Source: a virus (taxonomy: Monodnaviria; Loebvirae; Hofneiviricota; Faserviricetes; Tubulavirales; Inoviridae). From it: 13,148 nt of DNA. The stretch lies in IMG/VR virus record IMGVR_UViG_638341089_000007; one strand, given 5' to 3'. Position numbers and translations under genes: made by a program. Below are positions 6,905 to 13,148 of this stretch, piece after piece. Positions within the stretch are counted from its first letter, which is position 1, and every line of letters begins with the position of its first letter. The notes beneath the pieces are model-generated. The model saw nothing but the letters and a program-made list of their open reading frames with translations, was not told the origin of the DNA and searched no databases.

Positions 6905-7147
6905 ATGAAAATTCTGTCTACTGTTAAATATAAAGTTGCTCTGGCTTCAACTGCGCTTTTTGTTTCTGCAAGTTCTTTTGCGGCTGAAGGCGCTACAGGT
7001 GGTACTGATTATGCAGGTCAGGCAATGGATGCTTTGTTGACTCAGGCAAATGATCTCATTGGTAAAGTATGGCCTGTTGTTGTGGCTGTGGTTGGCGCTG
7101 GGCTTGCCATTCGTATTTTCAAAAAATTCTCTTCAAAAGCGGTTTGA
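6905..7147 (+). CDS. gVIII: Major coat protein pVIII precursor, 80 aa (signal peptide plus ~54-aa mature protein)
   Basis: GGAG Shine-Dalgarno 8 nt before ATG 6905; signal peptide [26 protein letters not shown], mature AEGATGG...[25 protein letters not shown]; the C-terminus matches M13 (KLFKKFTSKAS) and the IKe coat protein as I recall it. Confidence 0.85.
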
Positions 7148-7155
7148 ATTTCACT

Positions 7156-7180
7156 CAGGGGCACTCGTTGCCCCTTTATT
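7156..7180 (+). terminator. Rho-independent terminator immediately after gVIII
   Basis: Stem GGGGCA (7157-7162) / TGCCCC (7168-7173), 5-nt loop, followed by TTTATT; Ff phages have a strong terminator at this position. Confidence 0.6.
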
Positions 7181-7193
7181 AAAGCGGGTTACT

Positions 7194-8474
7194 ATGAAAA
7201 GGAAAATATTAATTCTTTCCGCTGTCCTCATTTCTCCTTTTTCACATGCTGAGTCATGGGAAAGCATTACTAAATCCACTTATCAAAGCTCTGCCTACGC
7301 TGAAAGTAAGCAAATAACCAATCAGGATGGCTCTAAGTCAACGGTTTACTATATTGATGCTGCTATGCAGGCCTCCGCTTGTCAGGGTGCTAAATCCAGT
7401 GCTCAGAGTGTATTTACTCAGGTTAAACCAACTTATGAGGGTATCTGGCCTGATTCTGAATTCCGTCTTGTTTTTACTGGTGATTGTACTTACAGCGATT
7501 CACCAGGGCAGAAGGATAAATATTGGTCTTTAACGGCTTATATTGTTGGTGATATTCAGCGTTCTGTTCCTGATGAAAAACCTACTGACCCGACACCAGA
7601 AGAAATTTGTGAAGCGAAGCCGCCAGAAGAAGGTGTATTTAATAATGTTGATTCATATGATGGTGGTCGTTATATCTACTATAACGGCTGTGAATATGAG
7701 GCTACTGGTGTCATTGTTTGTCAGGGTGATGGTACTGTTTGCGCTGCAACATGGAAGCCTACAGGTACTGTAGCTGACCCCTCTGATAAACCCTCAACCC
7801 CCCAAAATGGTGGTGGTGAGTCTGGCGGTGGTGAGTCTGGCGGTGGTGAGTCCGGTGGCGGTAGTTCTGGCGGTGGTGAGTCCGGTGGCGGTAGTTCTGG
7901 CGGTGGTGAGTCCGGTGGCGGTAGTTCTGGCGGTGGCTTTAGTGGTTCCAGTCTTTCTAAAGGTGATATTCAGTCTGCTATCGAAGGTGCTTCACCCAAA
8001 ATAGCCAGCGATATTCATGATAAATTAACGGAGAAAGACACTTCATCAGATGATAAAAAAAATGCCGATGAACAAACTAGGAATAATATAAATCGTCTTG
8101 ACGATTCCATTAACAATCTTACGCGGGGGGCTGGCCGTTTTGCTGACCCTTCAGGTGGTGATTCTCGTTATGGAAAGGGCGACTCTGAATTAGATGGCGC
8201 TTCTACTTTGGCTGATTCTGAATTGGGAATTGAAAAGGATTCTCACGGTGCTTTATGGGAAGCATTTTTAAATAAAGGTGCTATGCTGCCTAATTTACCC
8301 AATGGTAACGGCTGCTCTGATTTTATTATTTTTCCCGGAGAGGTTTATCAGATTGATATTGGTTGCGATAAATTACTGACTATTAAAGATGTTCTTTCAT
8401 GGGTTTTTTATTGCCTTACGTTCTGGTATGTCTTTACTTCTTTAACTTCATTGCTTCGCAAAGGGGGTGAGTGA
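7194..8474 (+). CDS. gIII: Minor coat / adsorption protein pIII, 426 aa, with Gly-rich ([10 protein letters not shown]) linker
   Basis: ATG 7194 gives signal peptide [19 protein letters not shown]; Cys-rich N-terminal domains; linker [30 protein letters not shown]...; hydrophobic C-terminal anchor; the ORF-track start at 7050 is an extension overlapping gVIII. Confidence 0.85.
7808..7937 (+). repeat. Tandem 15-bp and 30-bp repeats within gIII encoding the Gly-rich linker
   Basis: Two copies of (c/t)ggtggtgagtctgg (7811-7840) then three perfect copies of cggtggtgagtccggtggcggtagttctgg (7841-7930). Confidence 0.8.
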
Positions 8475-8815
8475 TGCCTTTATTATTAGGTATTCCTGCA
8501 TTGTTGCGTTTTCTTATTGGTCTTGTTCCTTTGTTTATTGGCTATGTGGCGAGTTTTTTAGCTCGACTTGCTACCAGAACAGGATTAATCGCCTTTGCAT
8601 TGGTCGCATTAATTACAACAACTGTTACGCTTTTAATGCAGTACCTTGCTGAGGTCATGTATAACGGTTTACCTGCTGATTTCTCCCATTTAATGGCGTC
8701 TGTATTGCCTGACCATTTTCAGGCGTGTGTTAACGTTATTATGGTTACTCGTATCAGTGTTTTTGTTTTCGATTTAAAACAAAAATTTCTTGATTATGCA
8801 AACAGGGTGATTTAA
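8474..8815 (+). CDS. gVI: Minor coat protein pVI, 113 aa
   Basis: ATG 8474 overlaps the gIII stop (TGATG); [16 protein letters not shown]... aligns with M13 pVI (MPVLLGIPLLLRFLGF...) and ends ...FVFDLKQK like M13 ...FIFDVKQK. Confidence 0.85.
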   Translation: MPLLLGIPALLRFLIGLVPLFIGYVASFLARLATRTGLIAFALVALITTTVTLLMQYLAEVMYNGLPADFSHLMASVLPDHFQACVNVIMVTRISVFVFDLKQKFLDYANRVI

Positions 8816-9910
8816 ATGGCGGTTCATGTAGTAACAGGCAAATTAGGCTCAGGCAAGACACTTGTTAGTGTTTCCAGAATACAGGAAAGACTTGCTAAGG
8901 GTTGTCCTGTTGCCACTAATCTTGATCTTAAATTGCATAATATGCCTATGGTTGGGCGTTATGCGAAAAAAACGCGCGTTATTCGCATTCCTGACAAGCC
9001 TTCATTAAATGATTTACTTGCTATTGGTATTGGGAATACATCTTACGATGAATCCCGTAATGGCCTCCTTGTACTTGATGAATGTGGTACTTGGTTTAAT
9101 TCCCGCTCATGGGGTGATAAAGACAGACAACCTGTTATTGACTGGTTTTTACATGCCAGAAAATTAGGCTGGGATATTATATTTTTGATTCAGGATATTT
9201 CGATAATGGATAAGCAAGCTCGTCTGGCGCTTGCTGAGCATGTTGTTTATTGTCGCCGTTCAGATAAATTAAACATTCCTTTTGTTGGCTCCATTATGAA
9301 TTTGGTTTCAGGGGCGCGATTTTCTTTACCAAAGGTACACTTTGGCATTGTCAAATATGGTGATAACGTTAATTCAATTACTGTTGATAAATGGATATAC
9401 ACCGGAAAATCATTATATTCCGCCTACAATACAAAACAGGTTTTTACTGATAACTATCCGCATGGTGCTTATTCGCTTTTGCCACCATTTATCACGCACG
9501 GTCAATTTTCTGTTCACAGAGGATTTAATTATTATATGCGCCTCACGAAAATTTATTTTCGCAAATCGAACCGTCTTATATTAATGCTTTCTTTTTTGGC
9601 GCTGGGGCTTGCGCTTGGTTTCTGGCTCCAGTCTGGAAAGAATGTTGATGAAATCTCCGCTATTAAATCTGCTTATGCTGAACAGGCGAGGGCGGTAACG
9701 CCTGATTCGTCCAGTGACTTACCCCGACTTTCTATTAATTCTTTTTCACAACTTGGCTTTGACGTTTCCGTTACGTTTGTTGATGCAAAAGGTACGAAAT
9801 ATCAGTATTTTGATTTGATTAAAGATGGTTATTCCGTTGATATTAAAGATGCCTGTCGTGTTGTTATTAGAAAAGGCCGTTATTTACAGACTGTTATCTG
9901 TCAGGAGTAA
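8816..9910 (+). CDS. gI: Assembly ATPase pI (Zot-like), 364 aa
   Basis: Walker A GKLGSGKT; long stretches match M13 pI as recalled (MAVxxVTGKLGSGKTLVSV..., LLVLDECGTWFN, QPxIDWFLHARKLGWDIIFL, LAEHVVYCRR); single C-terminal TM helix. Confidence 0.9.
   Translation: MAVHVVTGKLGSGKTLVSVSRIQERLAKGCPVATNLDLKLHNMPMVGRYAKKTRVIRIPDKPSLNDLLAIGIGNTSYDESRNGLLVLDECGTWFNSRSWGDKDRQPVIDWFLHARKLGWDIIFLIQDISIMDKQARLALAEHVVYCRRSDKLNIPFVGSIMNLVSGARFSLPKVHFGIVKYGDNVNSITVDKWIYTGKSLYSAYNTKQVFTDNYPHGAYSLLPPFITHGQFSVHRGFNYYMRLTKIYFRKSNRLILMLSFLALGLALGFWLQSGKNVDEISAIKSAYAEQARAVTPDSSSDLPRLSINSFSQLGFDVSVTFVDAKGTKYQYFDLIKDGYSVDIKDACRVVIRKGRYLQTVICQE
9536..9910 (+). CDS. gXI: Putative pXI, in-frame internal start within gI at Met241, 124 aa
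   Basis: Internal ATG at 9536 (MRLTKIYFRKSNRLILMLSFLALG...) corresponds to the M13 pXI start (MKLTKIYLKKFSRVLCLAIGF...) at the same residue number; inferred by homology. Confidence 0.45.
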   Translation: MRLTKIYFRKSNRLILMLSFLALGLALGFWLQSGKNVDEISAIKSAYAEQARAVTPDSSSDLPRLSINSFSQLGFDVSVTFVDAKGTKYQYFDLIKDGYSVDIKDACRVVIRKGRYLQTVICQE

Positions 9911-9917
9911 TATTATT

Positions 9918-11183
9918 ATGCGCTCTGTTATTGTTGCTTTTTTATTTGCCTGTTCATTCTGCGTTTCTGCTGAAACTGTTAATTTAAACAATTCATCTGT
10001 TCGCTCATTTGTTCAGTGGTATTCTTCAAAAACTGGCAAGCCTGTTATTGTTAATCCTGATATTAAAGGAAACGTAACCGTATTTAATGCTGATGTTAAT
10101 CCAACAAATATTGATGATTTCTTTAAGTCTGTTCTGAATGCTAACGGTTTTGTCATGCTTTCTGGCAATCCTGCGGTAGTCTCTTTGCCGTCTAAATTAC
10201 CTTCACAGATGGTTTCGGATTCCGATGATTCTGATAACCAGTCTTATGATACTTTTCCTTCTGAGCCATCTTACCAGCCAGTACCTGTGGCGCTTACGGT
10301 CAGAAATTTTAAGCTGACAAAAGTTAGATCGTCCGATGTTCAGCAACTGATTAAAATTTATCTTGATTCTAATGGTGGTGGTAATGTCGTGGATTATCCA
10401 GGCAATAACTCGCTGATTGTTTCTGCGCCTGACGAGCTGCTGCCGGTTCTGTCCGATTTTATCAATTCTGTGGATGTTGCCCGCGATCAGGTTCTCATTC
10501 AGTCGCTGATGTTTGAAACCAGCTTGTCTGATGGCGTTGATTTATCGTTTGCGGCAGGTTCTGCATCCGGTCATAAGGTTGCGGGGGGCTTTAATACTTC
10601 TGCACTGGGTAGCGCTCTTTCTACGGCGGGCGGTTCTTTTGGTATTTTTGATGGTAACGTGTTGGCGCTGTCTCTGCGTGCTGTCCAGAGTAATTCACGC
10701 TCTAAGGTGATTTCAACGCCGCGTATTCTTACTCAGTCTGGTCAGACTGGTTACATTTCCGTAGGTAAGAATGTGCCGTTTATCACCGGAAAGGTAACGG
10801 GCGAATCTGCCGGGGTAAATAATCCGTTTCAGACTATCGAGCGTCATGATGTTGGCGTTTCTCTCAAGGTAACGCCTGTTGTCATGGGTAACGGGCAACT
10901 AGTTCTGACTATCGACACTCGCGCTGATTCAATCAGCAATGATGATCAGGCATCCGATATTATTACTAATCAGCGCCAGATTCAGACGACAGTCCAGATT
11001 AAGGATGGTCAGACGTTGTTATTGGGGGGGCTTATCGATTCATCGTTTAGCAATGCTGAGCGTTCAGTTCCAGTTATAAGTAAAATTCCTCTTATAGGCT
11101 GGATTTTCAGTAGCAAGGCAGACAGCAATGAACAGCGTATTATGTATATTTTGCTTACAGCACATATCATTCGTCCACTTTGA
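9918..11183 (+). CDS. gIV: Secretin pIV (outer-membrane export channel), 421 aa
   Basis: AGGAG Shine-Dalgarno before ATG 9918; signal peptide MRSVIVAFLFACSFCVSA; motifs shared with M13 pIV as recalled (VPFITGxVTGESAxVNNPFQTIER, DGQTLLLGGL, SKIPLIGxxFSS); the ORF-track start at 9825 is an extension overlapping gI. Confidence 0.9.
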   Translation: MRSVIVAFLFACSFCVSAETVNLNNSSVRSFVQWYSSKTGKPVIVNPDIKGNVTVFNADVNPTNIDDFFKSVLNANGFVMLSGNPAVVSLPSKLPSQMVSDSDDSDNQSYDTFPSEPSYQPVPVALTVRNFKLTKVRSSDVQQLIKIYLDSNGGGNVVDYPGNNSLIVSAPDELLPVLSDFINSVDVARDQVLIQSLMFETSLSDGVDLSFAAGSASGHKVAGGFNTSALGSALSTAGGSFGIFDGNVLALSLRAVQSNSRSKVISTPRILTQSGQTGYISVGKNVPFITGKVTGESAGVNNPFQTIERHDVGVSLKVTPVVMGNGQLVLTIDTRADSISNDDQASDIITNQRQIQTTVQIKDGQTLLLGGLIDSSFSNAERSVPVISKIPLIGWIFSSKADSNEQRIMYILLTAHIIRPL

Positions 11184-11224
11184 TGGATAGCGGGTAGGTG
11201 CGTGAGCCCTGCTCGCTATCCATC
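11182..11224 (+). other. Long hairpin immediately after gIV; candidate packaging signal and/or gIV terminator
   Basis: GATGGATAGCG (11182-11192) / CGCTATCCATC (11214-11224), 11-bp perfect stem with further pairing inside the 21-nt loop; no T-tract follows. In Ff phages the packaging-signal hairpin sits right after gIV. Confidence 0.4.
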
Positions 11225-11252
11225 AAATGGACATTATTGATTGGGGTAACTA

Positions 11253-11561
11253 ATGGATTCTTATGGGATTTTATCTGCTCTGGCAGAACGAACGATTACA
11301 GCGGAAGAAGCAAAAACAATGACACTTGCAGCCAGAAGTTCTTCGGCTCAGGTAAATGAAGCATCACTTGCTCTGTTACTGATTGATAATACTCTGGATG
11401 CGATCAAAGCAGCTGCCAGTGAAGGGAAAGGATACACTTTACTTCCTTCTTATGAGATTTCTTTAAAAGCCATTGATTTAGCAGAAGAATTTTTAAGGAA
11501 ACAATGCGGCTATGTTATTGATAACCAGAATGGCGTAAGGACGGTCTATTGGTTTATATGA
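11253..11561 (+). CDS. Hypothetical 102-aa protein (predicted helical), non-core prophage gene
   Basis: ORF-track ORF between gIV and the dif-like site; no family recognised. Confidence 0.5.
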   Translation: MDSYGILSALAERTITAEEAKTMTLAARSSSAQVNEASLALLLIDNTLDAIKAAASEGKGYTLLPSYEISLKAIDLAEEFLRKQCGYVIDNQNGVRTVYWFI

Positions 11562-11562
11562 T

Positions 11563-11607
11563 AACCCCGGACAGTGACAAAACTTGCTTTTGTTAGTGTC
11601 CGGGGTT
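11563..11607 (+). other. Imperfect long hairpin after the 102-aa ORF; candidate terminator or ssDNA origin-like structure
   Basis: AACCCCGGACA (11563-11573) / TGTCCGGGGTT (11597-11607) with inner pairing ACAAAA/TTTTGT; a T7 run follows only about 20 nt downstream (11628-11634). Confidence 0.35.
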
Positions 11608-11678
11608 GGCCAAGCCGAACAATTCTGTTTTTTTAGCGTTATTGCTGATTCGGCGCGGCAGCATTACGAGGAGATAAA

Positions 11679-11912
11679 ATGCAATTTTTCACATCCAGCG
11701 ATACTGTAATGTTATGTGCGAAGACCTGCGATCGCTGTGGTCGCCATGCGAAGACGGTGGTAGATGACATTGAGTTCAATGAGTTTCTGTCTGTTAATCA
11801 CTTAGCTGGATACGGTTCAATTTTTGGTGACAGTAATCGCTTAAAACTGGATTTATGCCAACATTGCCTGAAAGACGTCCTGGGCCAGTGGATTACGGTC
11901 TGTGACCAATGA
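11679..11912 (+). CDS. Hypothetical 77-aa protein with two Cys pairs (Zn-ribbon-like), non-core prophage gene
   Basis: Strong Shine-Dalgarno GAGGAG 5 nt before ATG 11679; CDRC (aa 17-20) and CQHC (aa 60-63) suggest a zinc ribbon; no family recognised. Confidence 0.55.
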   Translation: MQFFTSSDTVMLCAKTCDRCGRHAKTVVDDIEFNEFLSVNHLAGYGSIFGDSNRLKLDLCQHCLKDVLGQWITVCDQ

Positions 11913-11950
11913 CGGCACCGGTAACGCCAGTTCCCACCATCCTTACCATT

Positions 11951-11983
11951 GGTGCGCATAATGTACGACTCGTTATGTTGAAA
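11951..11983 (+). other. Second dif-like site (attP-type junction between tandem units)
   Basis: Same 33-bp GGTGCGCATAATGTACGACTCGTTATGTTGAAA as at 3652-3684, but with phage sequence rather than host sequence upstream. Confidence 0.75.
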
Positions 11984-12021
11984 AGGCCGCTGCGAAAATA
12001 GAATCCCGCAGCGGCCTCTTT
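11984..12021 (-). terminator. Second copy of the GC-rich hairpin terminator
   Basis: Same AGGCCGCTGCG...CGCAGCGGCCT sequence as 3685-3722, shifted by 8299 bp. Confidence 0.45.
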
Positions 12022-12047
12022 AGCATAACGTCATTGTGCGAACCAAT

Positions 12048-12752
12048 TCATAATGCTGCGGGAGCCACGTAATAGACAATCACAAATACAGCTAATGCTC
12101 CACCTGCTCTTACCCAGTTTGATATTTTGACTTCTATAAACCCGGGTATAAATGAGACTACCCCAGCAACTGCTGCTGAAAGAATTATTCGAAAGAAAGT
12201 GTATTGAAAGTTCGTTGGATTAGGTATAAATATTGCGATTATTATAAAAAGAATAACAAGTAAAATGCCAAAGCTAAATGCCGCTATTCTCTCGTGTGCT
12301 TTTGTCAATTTTTCTTTTCCTTTATTGTCAAATCCATATACTGGCATATCTTCATTAACGAAAAGATTCCTTATTTCTTTTGCAGAACGTTTGTCATGGG
12401 CTTTTACTATCCTTTGCATTGAAGCAAAAGCAGTGGAGCTTGGTTTAATACTATTATCATTCATTACCTCTCTATATTTTTTGTAATGAGCTAAGATAAG
12501 GTGAAGAACATCAATGCATGTTTCTGCAAGCCATTGATTCCATTGAGTATTATTTAATTCATCTACTGTTCTGTTATGTGCAGCGCAGTGTTCTAAATAG
12601 CCGAAAAAACTGTCTCCACATGAATTCACGGTATCAAAATCACATTTACCAGATAGGTAACACTCTAATGACTCAGTATATTTTTCATATAAACGCTCAA
12701 TTTCTTTTTTTTGATTATCAATGATACCGTGAACATCCATATCTGATTTCAC
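12048..12752 (-). CDS. Second copy of the hypothetical 234-aa membrane-anchored protein
   Basis: ORF-track protein identical to 3749-4453. Confidence 0.65.
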   Translation of the reverse strand: MKSDMDVHGIIDNQKKEIERLYEKYTESLECYLSGKCDFDTVNSCGDSFFGYLEHCAAHNRTVDELNNTQWNQWLAETCIDVLHLILAHYKKYREVMNDNSIKPSSTAFASMQRIVKAHDKRSAKEIRNLFVNEDMPVYGFDNKGKEKLTKAHERIAAFSFGILLVILFIIIAIFIPNPTNFQYTFFRIILSAAVAGVVSFIPGFIEVKISNWVRAGGALAVFVIVYYVAPAAL

Positions 12753-13027
12753 TATCTTTTTTGTTGAGTGTTATTTGACTGGGATTGAATTTTTGCCAAT
12801 AGCGAACTTGCTTTCGATGTATTCAATCCATTACAAATCATTCTTGTAATCGGTTTTTTGTAAATTCGATGAACGATATTTTCAACTTCAGTGATGCTTT
12901 CATTGCCACTGAGTTTTTTTATCTCATTGAACATCTCCTCCAATTGTTCATTTGTTGGATGCCATTTGATTATATCTAATTCTTCCTCTAATGCTTTTTT
13001 AAAAAGGAAAACCTGAAAAGATAACAT
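12752..13027 (-). CDS. Second copy of the hypothetical 91-aa protein
   Basis: ORF-track protein identical to 4453-4728. Confidence 0.6.
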   Translation of the reverse strand: MLSFQVFLFKKALEEELDIIKWHPTNEQLEEMFNEIKKLSGNESITEVENIVHRIYKKPITRMICNGLNTSKASSLLAKIQSQSNNTQQKR

Positions 13028-13028
13028 A

Positions 13029-13148
13029 TTACTTTCCTTGTGTTGGTTTAGTAGTGGATTGTTGAGCTTTTTCTAAAAGCCTTTTTGCTTTAGATGTGTC
13101 CAAACCATCTTGGGCAAAGCCTTGTTGCTTATCATTCTGTTTTTGTTC
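13029..13148 (-). CDS. Second copy of the small ORF (3' part only; start lies beyond the window)
   Basis: Corresponds to 4730-4849 of copy 1; truncated by the window edge. Confidence 0.4.
   Translation of the reverse strand, partial: EQKQNDKQQGFAQDGLDTSKAKRLLEKAQQSTTKPTQGK

What the first reader, a model, noticed from the sequence alone, without database searches (positions are those of the whole stretch)
11949..13148. Perfect direct repeat of at least 1.2 kb with 8299-bp period: tandem prophage array
3650-4849 is repeated at 11949-13148 at a constant offset, including the dif-like site, the hairpin and the accessory-operon genes. Tandem arrays are typical of Xer-integrated filamentous phages. 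Alternatively the second element could be a truncated satellite carrying only the regulatory/accessory module, as RS1 is to CTX. The window ends before this can be resolved.
Basis: seen in the sequence. Interest (0 to 1): 0.55.

Follow-up and report, generated by a model that had tools for sequence, protein, structure and literature searches.

The report
Tandem UPφ filamentous prophage at dif
The 1.2-kb perfect repeat is the start of a second filamentous prophage lying head-to-tail behind a first one at the E. coli chromosome-dimer resolution site (dif), an arrangement already published for this phage group (UPφ) and its relatives (CTXφ, Ypfφ), so it is real but ordinary.

Summary
Window 3650-4849 equals 11949-13148 with 0 mismatches (period 8299). 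The repeat starts 2 nt before the XerC arm of a dif-like site and is cut only by the window end.

The window is the E. coli terminus (yneE, tam, hipBA) followed by an 8.3-kb inovirus prophage. This phage is not CUS-1/Ypfφ. It belongs to the published UPφ group (Shapiro & Putonti 2020), which has:
- an IKe/I2-2-like backbone;
- a Ypfφ-like gII/gV;
- a 100-bp att module 99% identical to that of Ypfφ.

That paper already reports UPφ tandem repeats at dif. Twelve complete E. coli genomes carry the identical phage-phage junction. Eleven continue as a full second UPφ copy, and in the arrays read to their end canonical dif follows the last copy. One genome (F11) continues as a CUS-1/Ypfφ-type phage with the same cargo cassette, identical for 1322 bp. 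The window's 1200 bp therefore cannot say which phage follows. No RS1-like satellite was seen.

The att region folds in the (+) strand into a CTX-type forked hairpin. By analogy the prophage cannot excise, and new phage DNA comes from rolling-circle replication across the array. Verdict: real, already known, low interest.

The parts
1..3573 (.). Chromosomal flank of the E. coli terminus region: yneE (1-915 +), tam (919-1677 -), hipB (1985-2251 +), hipA (2251-3573 +)
   Evidence: Pfam Bestrophin_2, methyltransferase and HipA domains. RefSeq annotation of the 99.9%-identical locus in NZ_CP134718. ORF integrity confirmed.
3650..11948 (+). First complete prophage copy (8299 bp as written; 8317 bp in relatives), a UPφ-type inovirus
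   Evidence: Delimited by the repeat period and by the att sites. Gene content. 67.7% nt identity to Lineavirus I2-2 over 52% of the 7999-bp query, window 3950-11948. 99.7% identical over 92% of the window to E. coli ECONIH2, which PMC7307601 names as a UPφ host.
3652..3684 (+). attL, a hybrid dif-like site: XerC arm GGTGCGCATAA (3652-3662), 11-nt spacer TGTACGACTCG (3663-3673), XerD-like arm TTATGTTGAAA (3674-3684)
   Evidence: Read directly. Shares its first 15 nt with canonical dif GGTGCGCATAATGTATATTATGTTAAAT, which is found at the right end of arrays in relatives.
3686..3717 (.). GC-rich hairpin (10-bp stem, 12-nt loop) between the two inverted Xer sites. It caps the attP(+) fold and may also terminate the minus-strand cargo operon.
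   Evidence: Fold; coordinates. The terminator role is inferred: the scan does not list it because its loop exceeds 8 nt.
3719..3745 (-). Inverted second Xer site. The minus strand reads GGTTCGCACAA-TGACG-TTATGCTAAAG (5-nt spacer).
   Evidence: Sequence. In the (+) strand it pairs arm-for-arm with 3652-3684 (-32.1 kcal/mol, z -7.1). Divergent relatives keep the same architecture with unrelated intervening sequence.
3749..4870 (-). Cargo cassette 'A': ORFs of 230 aa (3749-4441), 91 aa (4453-4728) and 46 aa (4730-4870). Function unknown. The 230-aa and 91-aa ORFs are probably h5/h4 of UPφ901.
   Evidence: Only PHROG families of unknown function match (there the third ORF was scanned as its longer 104-aa reading, 4730-5044). 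No credible Pfam, PADLOC or NCBIfam match. Other UPφ copies carry unrelated cassettes here.
4929..4985 (+). Conserved block with hairpin 1 (4940-4968) and backbone-specific hairpin 2 (4970-4985). Putative ori(+), and the pivot between swappable cargo and phage backbone.
   Evidence: Alignment of six cargo/backbone combinations. Fold z -5.5. Identity between the window and the F11 CUS-type copies ends at 4971. The ori role is inferred by analogy with CTXφ (PMC4439123).
4986..5168 (-). 60-aa ORF divergent from gII, at the position of the CTXφ repressor rstR. Candidate repressor, probably h3 of UPφ901.
   Evidence: ORF. PHROG 2503, unknown function. Conserved across cargo variants of UPφ. The repressor role is inferred from position only.
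5338..11183 (+). Replication and morphogenesis genes: gII 5338-6390, gV 6402-6719, g7/g9 region 6722-6900 (frameshifted as written), g8 6905-7147, g3 7194-8474, g6 8474-8815, gI/Zot 8816-9910, gIV secretin 9918-11183
   Evidence: Pfam Phage_CRI + G2P_X_C, Putative_G5P, Phage_coatGP8, G3P_pilus-bind, DUF5455, Zot, Secretin. Coordinates and reading-frame integrity.
11253..11912 (+). Two small ORFs of unknown function (102 aa at 11253-11561; 77 aa at 11679-11912), at the position of h1/h2 of UPφ viruses
   Evidence: Description in PMC7307601.
11949..13148 (+). Start of the second element of the array: junction att site (11951-11983), hairpin (11985-12016), inverted site (12018-12044), cargo ORFs (12048-12740, 12752-13027, start of 13029-). 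Cut by the window end.
   Evidence: 0 mismatches vs 3650-4849. The junction is identical to phage-phage junctions in 12 complete genomes. Its att module (XerC arm to inverted site) matches the attP of a circular Salmonella episome except for three single-base differences in the hairpin.

Best explanation
The window shows the left part of a head-to-tail array of filamentous (inovirus) prophages integrated at the E. coli dif site just downstream of hipA. It holds one complete UPφ-type prophage (3650-11948) and the first 1200 bp of the next element, most likely a second full UPφ copy.

Shown: the phage encodes no integrase. It carries a CTX-type attachment region made of two inverted XerC/XerD-binding sites, with an 11-nt spacer on one and a 5-nt spacer on the other. 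In the packaged (+) single strand these fold into a forked hairpin that mimics dif.

Inferred from CTXφ/Ypfφ: XerC exchanges one strand pair between this hairpin and dif, and replication resolves the intermediate. Each integration regenerates a canonical dif on the right, so a further phage genome can integrate there and build an array. The left and junction sites are poor double-stranded Xer substrates because of the 11-nt spacer, so the prophage cannot excise. New (+) strands are instead made by gII-initiated rolling-circle replication from the ori of one copy to the ori of the next. The array is therefore what allows the lysogen to keep producing phage.
For: - The repeat is exact and starts 2 nt before the XerC arm.
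- Host flank and phage genes are identified. No recombinase domain was found in any ORF scanned.
- L001 (99.9% identical) has att sites at 21652 and 29969 and canonical dif at 38286, i.e. two full copies. 85.0412 also has two; FDAARGOS_1257 has two UPφ copies plus at least two CUS-type copies.
- 12 of 5426 complete genomes hold the identical 501-bp junction. 11 of those 12 continue 100% identical through the repressor candidate and the gII start.
- Of the 49 best junction-probe records, at least 35 have a phage-phage junction.
- The (+) strand fold pairs the XerC and XerD arms (z -7.1). Brenneria and Klebsiella relatives and a third contig (L011, binned in an Aerococcus MAG) conserve this architecture.
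- A circular 7938-bp Salmonella episome has the junction architecture as its attP.
- Literature: UPφ is integrated as tandem repeats at dif, with 3x read depth in UMB0901 and a triple in ECONIH2 (PMC7307601). Ypfφ forms tandem arrays of 2-4 copies with inverted Xer sites (PMC4266046). CTX-type IMEX integrate irreversibly and produce phage by rolling-circle replication from tandem copies (PMC4246890 and PMC3442271; PMC4439123).
- Y. pestis NCTC5923 shows an Ypfφ tandem with period 8742 and a near-identical junction (1 mismatch in the first 100 bp of the att module).
Against: - The window stops 1200 bp into the second element, before its repressor, ori and gII. Neither the completeness nor the identity of copy 2, nor the regenerated dif, can be seen here.
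- F11 shows that a different phage can follow the same junction with 1322 bp of identity.
- The phage-phage junction has the same architecture as the circular replicative form, so junction reads alone do not prove an array.
- The source assembly has a local cluster of homopolymer errors, so its quality at this locus is imperfect.
- Xer dependence, irreversibility and array-templated replication have not been tested experimentally for UPφ. They are transferred from CTXφ/Ypfφ.
Confidence: 0.77

Rival explanations
1. The array is real, but the second element is a different inovirus: a CUS-1/Ypfφ-type phage that carries the same att+cargo 'A' cassette. The locus would then be a mixed array, as in E. 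coli F11.
For: In F11 (L003) the elements after the identical junction match the window perfectly for 1322 bp from the att site and then switch to another repressor and backbone. That backbone is 99.45% identical to Y. pestis Ypfφ over 7.8 kb. The window shows only 1200 bp, less than the shared 1322 bp. FDAARGOS_1257 also mixes both phages at dif.
Against: 11 of the 12 complete genomes with this junction continue as UPφ. In F11 the UPφ copy next to hipA is followed by a copy with a different cargo cassette, not by cassette A as in the window.
Confidence: 0.1
2. Assembly artefact. The strain has a single integrated copy plus circular replicative-form DNA, or the assembler over-extended or mis-joined a contig, so the 1.2-kb repeat is not contiguous on the chromosome.
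For: The junction has the same architecture as the attP of the circular form. UPφ is shed and its copy number is uncertain in many assemblies (PMC7307601). The window contains a 150-bp cluster of homopolymer deletions typical of poorly polished sequence. The window ends inside the repeat.
Against: Independent complete genomes from several laboratories resolve 2-4 copies with dif at the end. Read depth of 3x was reported for UMB0901. A contig running hipA-phage-junction-cargo is what a true array gives. 13 of the 49 probe records show single copies assembled without such an extension.
Confidence: 0.07
3. The second element is a truncated or satellite element (RS1-like, or an internally deleted copy) that carries the att/cargo/regulatory end but not a full set of morphogenesis genes.
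For: The window cannot exclude it. Deleted copies occur: in Rb-3 one array member lacks most of gIV, h1 and part of h2. RS1 plays this role for CTXφ.
Against: No element limited to the regulatory/accessory module was seen in the six arrays inspected. All 11 homotypic junctions continue at least into gII. The deleted copy in Rb-3 is the upstream one and keeps gII through gI.
Confidence: 0.05

Closest known systems
UPφ viruses (UPφ901; Shapiro & Putonti, Virus Evol 2020, PMC7307601)
   Same: IKe/I2-2-like core genes in the same order. gII/gV about 86% aa identical to Ypfφ. Dif-like site at the genome start. Reverse-oriented ORFs next to it. Two unknown ORFs after gIV. Variable glycine-rich g3p. 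Integrated at dif as tandem repeats in urinary and ExPEC E. coli. ECONIH2, named in the paper, matches the window at 99.7%.
   Different: Nothing essential; this is a member. The paper calls the att site 'a copy of dif'. Here it is shown to be a CTX-type pair of inverted sites with 11- and 5-nt spacers. The window copy has a frameshifted g7/g9 region, probably a sequencing error.
CTXφ (and its satellite RS1) of Vibrio cholerae, the CTX-type IMEX
   Same: No integrase. Two inverted XerCD sites fold in the (+) ssDNA into attP(+). dif is regenerated on the right. Tandem arrays form. The layout is att - cargo - hairpin ori - divergent small regulator - replication gene. Hybrid phages arise from arrays.
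   Different: No detectable nucleotide similarity to CTXφ was seen, and the replication protein here belongs to Pfam Phage_CRI. The sequence between the two sites is a tight 32-nt hairpin, shorter than I recall for CTXφ (not checked here). Cargo lies on the left (att side), whereas ctxAB lies on the right. No RS1-like satellite was found. None of the mechanism has been tested for UPφ.
Ypfφ (Y. pestis) / CUS-1φ (E. coli O18:K1:H7)
   Same: The 100-bp att module is 99% identical. gII-gV is 80% nt / 86% aa identical. Both integrate at dif and form tandem arrays of 2-4 copies. Both have variable cargo next to attL. They co-reside with UPφ in the same arrays and share cargo cassette A.
   Different: The structural and assembly genes (g7-gIV) and the repressor are unrelated at the nucleotide level. 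UPφ has a 60-aa regulator where the CUS type has a 148-aa HTH protein. The window phage is therefore not CUS-1.
IKe / I2-2 (Lineavirus), non-integrating Ff-like coliphages
   Same: Closest named phages for the morphogenesis genes (67.7-68.5% nt identity over 41-52% of the query). The g3p has a pilus-binding domain.
   Different: [quoted passage not shown]

Membership tests
UPφ viruses (Lineavirus-like, dif-integrating) | Core inovirus genes gII-gV-g7-g9-g8-g3-g6-gI-gIV, collinear with and most similar to IKe/I2-2 | tested here: met
   Pfam domains and gene order. Best named phage hits are I2-2, IKe and PEar at about 68% nt identity.
UPφ viruses (Lineavirus-like, dif-integrating) | gII/gV more than 85% aa identical to Ypfφ while the other genes are not | tested here: met
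   gII is 86% identical to the Y. pestis locus. By blastn only gII-gV (80%), 100 bp of att and 106 bp near the right end align.
UPφ viruses (Lineavirus-like, dif-integrating) | Two unknown ORFs (h1, h2) between gIV and att; near-identity to published UPφ hosts | tested here: met
   ORFs at 11253-11561 and 11679-11912 have no Pfam family. The window is 99.7% identical over 92% to ECONIH2 CP014667, named in PMC7307601. The UPφ901 sequence itself was not available for direct alignment.
CTX-type IMEX | Two inverted XerC/XerD-binding sites that form a forked hairpin in the (+) ssDNA, while the double-stranded sites have non-canonical spacers | tested here: met
   Sites 3652-3684 (11-nt spacer) and 3719-3745 (5-nt spacer). 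Fold z -7.1. Architecture conserved in divergent relatives.
CTX-type IMEX | Integration regenerates canonical dif at the right end; no phage integrase | tested here: inconclusive
   The right end lies outside the window. In relatives canonical dif follows the last copy. No integrase domain was found in any scanned window ORF.
CTX-type IMEX | XerC-only strand exchange on ssDNA, irreversible integration, phage production by rolling-circle replication between tandem copies | not testable with these tools
   Known for CTXφ and proposed for Ypfφ/CUS-1φ (PMC4246890, PMC3442271, PMC4266046). Needs genetics and biochemistry in UPφ.
CUS-1φ / Ypfφ | About 99% nucleotide identity to Ypfφ over the roughly 7-kb core | tested here: not met
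   The window phage aligns to Y. pestis Ypfφ only at att (100 bp), gII-gV (80%) and 106 bp. The F11 copies 3/4 do meet the criterion (99.45% over 7822 bp).
RS1-like satellite (for the second element) | Element with att, regulator and replication genes but no morphogenesis genes, placed next to a full prophage | not testable with these tools
   The window ends at 13148, before the regulator. No such element was seen in six related arrays.

The most novel reading that the evidence does not exclude
The 1.2-kb repeat is part of a portable 'att-to-ori' cassette (window 3650 to about 4971). Unrelated inovirus backbones (UPφ and CUS-1/Ypfφ) exchange this cassette when they sit in mixed tandem arrays at dif. 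Rolling-circle replication from the ori hairpin of one prophage to that of the next would package the upstream backbone with the downstream att+cargo. Mixed arrays would then act as a built-in cargo-shuffling device, and the element following the window's first copy need not be the same phage.
Probability: 0.35. Interest if true: 0.45.

Novelty: already known. Interest (0 to 1): 0.18.

Why it matters
Tandem arrays matter for CTX-type phages because, in that model, a single prophage cannot excise and only an array lets the lysogen keep making phage. Arrays also complicate assembly and copy-number calls near dif. For this locus the result is mainly a correct annotation: a UPφ prophage array, not CUS-1 and not a new kind of element.

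The one point beyond the literature is the side observation of mixed arrays. UPφ and CUS-1/Ypfφ-type phages share arrays at the same dif, and they share identical att+cargo cassettes that break at a conserved hairpin. If confirmed, this would extend the 'hybrid phage from tandem prophages' mechanism of CTXφ to enterobacterial pathogens. It would also explain how unknown cargo genes move between phage backbones.

Tried and rejected
- **CUS-1 label rejected.** I first took the phage for CUS-1/Ypfφ because of its position, att site and gII. Direct comparison with Y. pestis Ypfφ shows that only att and gII-gV are shared.
- **Source assembly not found.** I tried to read past the window end by looking up window-specific ORFs (6722-6862 and 6881-7147). 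Neither is on record. The best complete-genome hits are 99.9%, not 100%.
- **Papers not held or not found.** Gonzalez 2002 (CUS-1) and Davis & Waldor 2000 are not held. One paper search had an invalid term and one found nothing.
- **Ff-type nick sequence.** A search for the f1-type motif TTCTTTAATAG near the regulatory region found nothing relevant.
- **Cargo function.** Pfam, PHROGs, PADLOC and NCBIfam gave only unknown-function families or sub-threshold noise.
- **Hairpin as terminator.** The consensus terminator scan does not list the att hairpin because its loop is too long. Its terminator role stays an inference.
- **Megablast against phage genomes.** It found only a 190-bp gIV fragment. 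The 'distant' mode was needed.

Full report
**1. Observation**

Window 3650-4849 and 11949-13148 are identical at all 1200 positions, with a period of 8299. The last mismatch at this offset is 3649/11948, and upstream of it the two sequences are unrelated. The repeat starts with TT followed by GGTGCGCATAA, the XerC-binding arm of E. coli dif. On the right it is limited only by the end of the window. The repeat is real, non-random, and a lower bound on the duplicated length.

**2. What the locus is**

Positions 1-3573 are chromosomal: yneE, tam, hipB and hipA (Pfam; RefSeq annotation of a 99.9%-identical locus). These are the genes that flank dif on one side in the related complete genomes.

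Positions 3650-11948 are a complete inovirus genome:
- three minus-strand ORFs of unknown function (230, 91 and 46 aa);
- a divergent 60-aa ORF;
- gII (Phage_CRI + G2P_X_C) and gV;
- a g7/g9 region;
- g8, g3 (pilus-binding domain), g6, gI (Zot) and gIV (secretin);
- two small unknown ORFs.

No recombinase is encoded.

**3. Which phage it is**

I first assumed CUS-1/Ypfφ. That is wrong. Against the Ypfφ tandem in Y. pestis NCTC5923, only three parts align: the first 100 bp (att module, 99%), gII-gV (80% nt; gII 86% aa) and 106 bp near the right end. The morphogenesis genes are closest to the non-integrating lineaviruses I2-2 and IKe, at about 68% nt over 41-52% of the query.

This matches the published UPφ group (UPφ901; Shapiro & Putonti 2020, PMC7307601):
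- an IKe/I2-2-like backbone;
- gII/gV more than 85% identical to Ypfφ;
- a dif-like site at the genome start;
- reverse ORFs next to that site;
- two unknown ORFs, h1 and h2;
- a variable glycine-rich g3p.

E. coli ECONIH2, cited in that paper as carrying a UPφ triple, matches the window at 99.7%. [quoted passage not shown] It infers a triple in UMB0901 from 3x read depth. The finding is therefore already described for this phage group.

**4. Is the array real, and what is the second element?**

*Evidence from complete genomes.* The window cannot answer this itself, so I used complete E. coli genomes.
- NZ_CP134718 (L001) has att sites at 21652 and 29969 and canonical dif (GGTGCGCATAATGTATATTATGTTAAAT) at 38286. 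That is two full copies with dif regenerated on the right.
- A 501-bp probe across the window's junction is fully matched in 12 of 5426 genomes.
- A 2061-bp probe extended through the 60-aa ORF into gII is 100% matched in 11 of those 12.
- Of the 49 best junction-probe records, 12 have this homotypic junction. One has it with a deletion. 22 have the phage end joined to the att module followed by a different cargo. 13 end at dif only. One further record matches only partially and was not classified. Arrays are thus the common state.
- Arrays inspected: 2x UPφ(A) in RIVM_C029670 and 85.0412; UPφ(A)+UPφ(B) in Combat2C1; 2x UPφ(A) plus at least 2x CUS-type(B) in FDAARGOS_1257; UPφ(A), UPφ(C) and 2x CUS-type(A) in F11; an internally deleted UPφ(A) followed by a full copy in Rb-3.
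- No RS1-like satellite was seen.

*The caveat from F11.* The CUS-type copies in F11 are 99.45% identical to Ypfφ over 7.8 kb. They are preceded by the same junction and match the window perfectly for 1322 bp from the att site. This is longer than the 1200 bp visible in the window. The window therefore cannot distinguish a second UPφ copy from a CUS-1/Ypfφ-type phage with the same cassette. The genome survey favours a UPφ copy 11:1.

*The artefact reading.* It cannot be excluded from sequence alone, because the junction has the same architecture as the attP of the circular form. A 7938-bp circular Salmonella 'plasmid' is an episomal UPφ with this architecture. Independent closed genomes and published depth data make the artefact reading unlikely.

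**5. Mechanism**

*Shown in the sequence.*
- The att region is not a copy of dif. Site 1 (3652-3684) has the dif XerC arm, an 11-nt spacer and a XerD-like arm.
- Site 2 (3719-3745, inverted) has a 5-nt spacer.
- A 10-bp GC hairpin lies between the two sites.
- The (+) strand, which is the coding strand of gII-gIV, folds so that the XerC arms pair with each other and the XerD arms pair with each other around an asymmetric central bubble (-32.1 kcal/mol, z -7.1).
- The same architecture recurs in relatives from Brenneria and Klebsiella and in a third contig (L011, binned in an Aerococcus MAG); the intervening sequence is unrelated in the Klebsiella and L011 copies.
- Ypfφ has a 99% identical att module.

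*Transferred from the literature.* This is the CTX-type attP(+) proposed for Ypfφ (PMC4266046). Reviews list Ypfφ and CUS-1φ as CTX-type IMEX. [quoted passage not shown] Tandem copies are 'crucial for subsequent virion production' (PMC3442271; PMC4439123). With XerC cleavage after GGTGCGCATAA on the (+) strand, the predicted prophage has chromosome-XerC arm-phage spacer on the left and phage-XerC arm-dif core on the right. That is exactly what is observed. The Xer chemistry, the irreversibility and the array-templated replication are inferred, not tested, for UPφ.

**6. A side observation: a pivot between cargo and backbone**

- *The conserved block.* I aligned six combinations of cargo (A, B, C, Doc) and backbone (UPφ, CUS-type). 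One block is conserved in all of them: window 4929-4971, containing hairpin 4940-4968 (AACGTGCAG-loop-CTGCACGTT). Everything to its left, as far as site 2, is cargo-specific. Everything to its right is backbone-specific. A second hairpin (4970-4985) differs between the backbones by compensatory changes: GTACCA..TGGTAC versus GTCTCA..TGAGAC.
- *A linked SNP.* A SNP in the att hairpin loop (AAAATAGAATCC vs AAAATCGAATCC) travels with the cargo, not with the backbone.
- *Comparison with CTXφ.* In CTXφ the replication nick is in the apical loop of a hairpin of ori(+), and the scheme of that ori(+) region shows the repressor gene rstR (PMC4439123). Virions made from arrays can be hybrids (Davis & Waldor 2000, as cited in PMC7307601 and PMC4246890).
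- *My inference, probability about 0.35.* The 4929-4985 region is the UPφ/CUS ori(+), and mixed arrays exchange att-to-ori cassettes between backbones. Ordinary homologous recombination at the only conserved block would give the same pattern.
- *Consequence for the window.* The ori of the second copy would lie at about 13239-13267, beyond the window end.

**7. Verdict**

- The tandem-array reading is supported and is already published for this phage group.
- The identity of the second element cannot be decided from the window: full UPφ copy about 0.77, heterologous CUS-type phage about 0.10, assembly artefact about 0.07, truncated element about 0.05.
- Novelty: already known.
- Interest: low, 0.18.

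Noticed in passing
window 6731-6884: A cluster of 18 single-base deletions relative to all related copies, nearly all shortening a homopolymer or doublet by one base. Only one other difference was found across the 13 kb (a T/G substitution at 1757). As written it frameshifts g7 and g9. This is most likely a local sequencing or polishing error in the source assembly. It also explains the period of 8299 here versus 8317 in relatives.
   Followed up: yes
L003 (E. coli F11, NZ_CP076123) 3350-38428; L005 (FDAARGOS_1257) 11900-40501: Mixed arrays of four or more filamentous prophages at one dif. UPφ copies are followed by CUS-1/Ypfφ-type copies (99.45% identical to Y. pestis Ypfφ). The UPφ paper found only one co-infection and placed the Ypfφ-like phage at another locus, so co-residence in one array appears not to have been reported.
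   Followed up: partly
window 4929-4985 (and L003, L002, L005, L006 equivalents): A conserved 43-bp block with a hairpin marks the exact boundary between swappable cargo cassettes and the phage backbone. An adjacent second hairpin shows compensatory changes between the UPφ and CUS-type backbones. Candidate ori(+).
   Followed up: partly
L006 (Salmonella enterica NZ_CP140410, 7938 bp, circular): Annotated as an unnamed plasmid, but it is an episomal UPφ genome. Its gIV protein is identical to that of the E. coli arrays, and it carries a Doc-family toxin as cargo.
   Followed up: partly
window 11974-12045; L016 (IncF plasmid NZ_CP091654) 3001-3071: About 72 bp of the att module (the end of the XerD arm, the GC hairpin and inverted site 2) occur at about 91% identity on 441 plasmids, mostly conjugative ones from E. 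coli. In the one plasmid inspected (IncFIB/IncFIC) the segment lies directly next to an STM4504/CBY_0614-family gene, which is also a cargo gene in some UPφ copies. It looks like a fossil left end of such a phage on the plasmid, or a shared source of cargo.
   Followed up: partly
L015 (E. coli Rb-3) 7350-22400: A two-copy array in which the upstream copy has an internal deletion removing most of gIV, h1 and part of h2. The downstream copy is intact.
   Followed up: partly
L007 (contig binned as Candidatus Nanosynbacter MAG) 4811-16569: An enterobacterial contig, evidently mis-binned. It has an extra dif-like site (AGTGCGCATAATGTGTTGAACATGTTAAAT) 3.4 kb upstream of the UPφ attL, with the same 12-nt left flank. 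This may be another Xer-exploiting element stacked at dif.
   Followed up: no
L008 (Brenneria alni contig, 9278 bp) 13 and 9051: The same att site occurs at both ends of the contig (period 9038). This is either a circular or a tandem relative of the phage in a plant-associated enterobacterium.
   Followed up: no
(various genomes): The att-proximal cargo slot of UPφ is highly variable. It holds cassette A (this window), an ECs_2282 zinc-binding cassette, a Doc toxin, an STM4504/CBY_0614-family protein, a CxxCx11CxxC 'mobilome' protein, and others. None has a known function in the phage.
   Followed up: no
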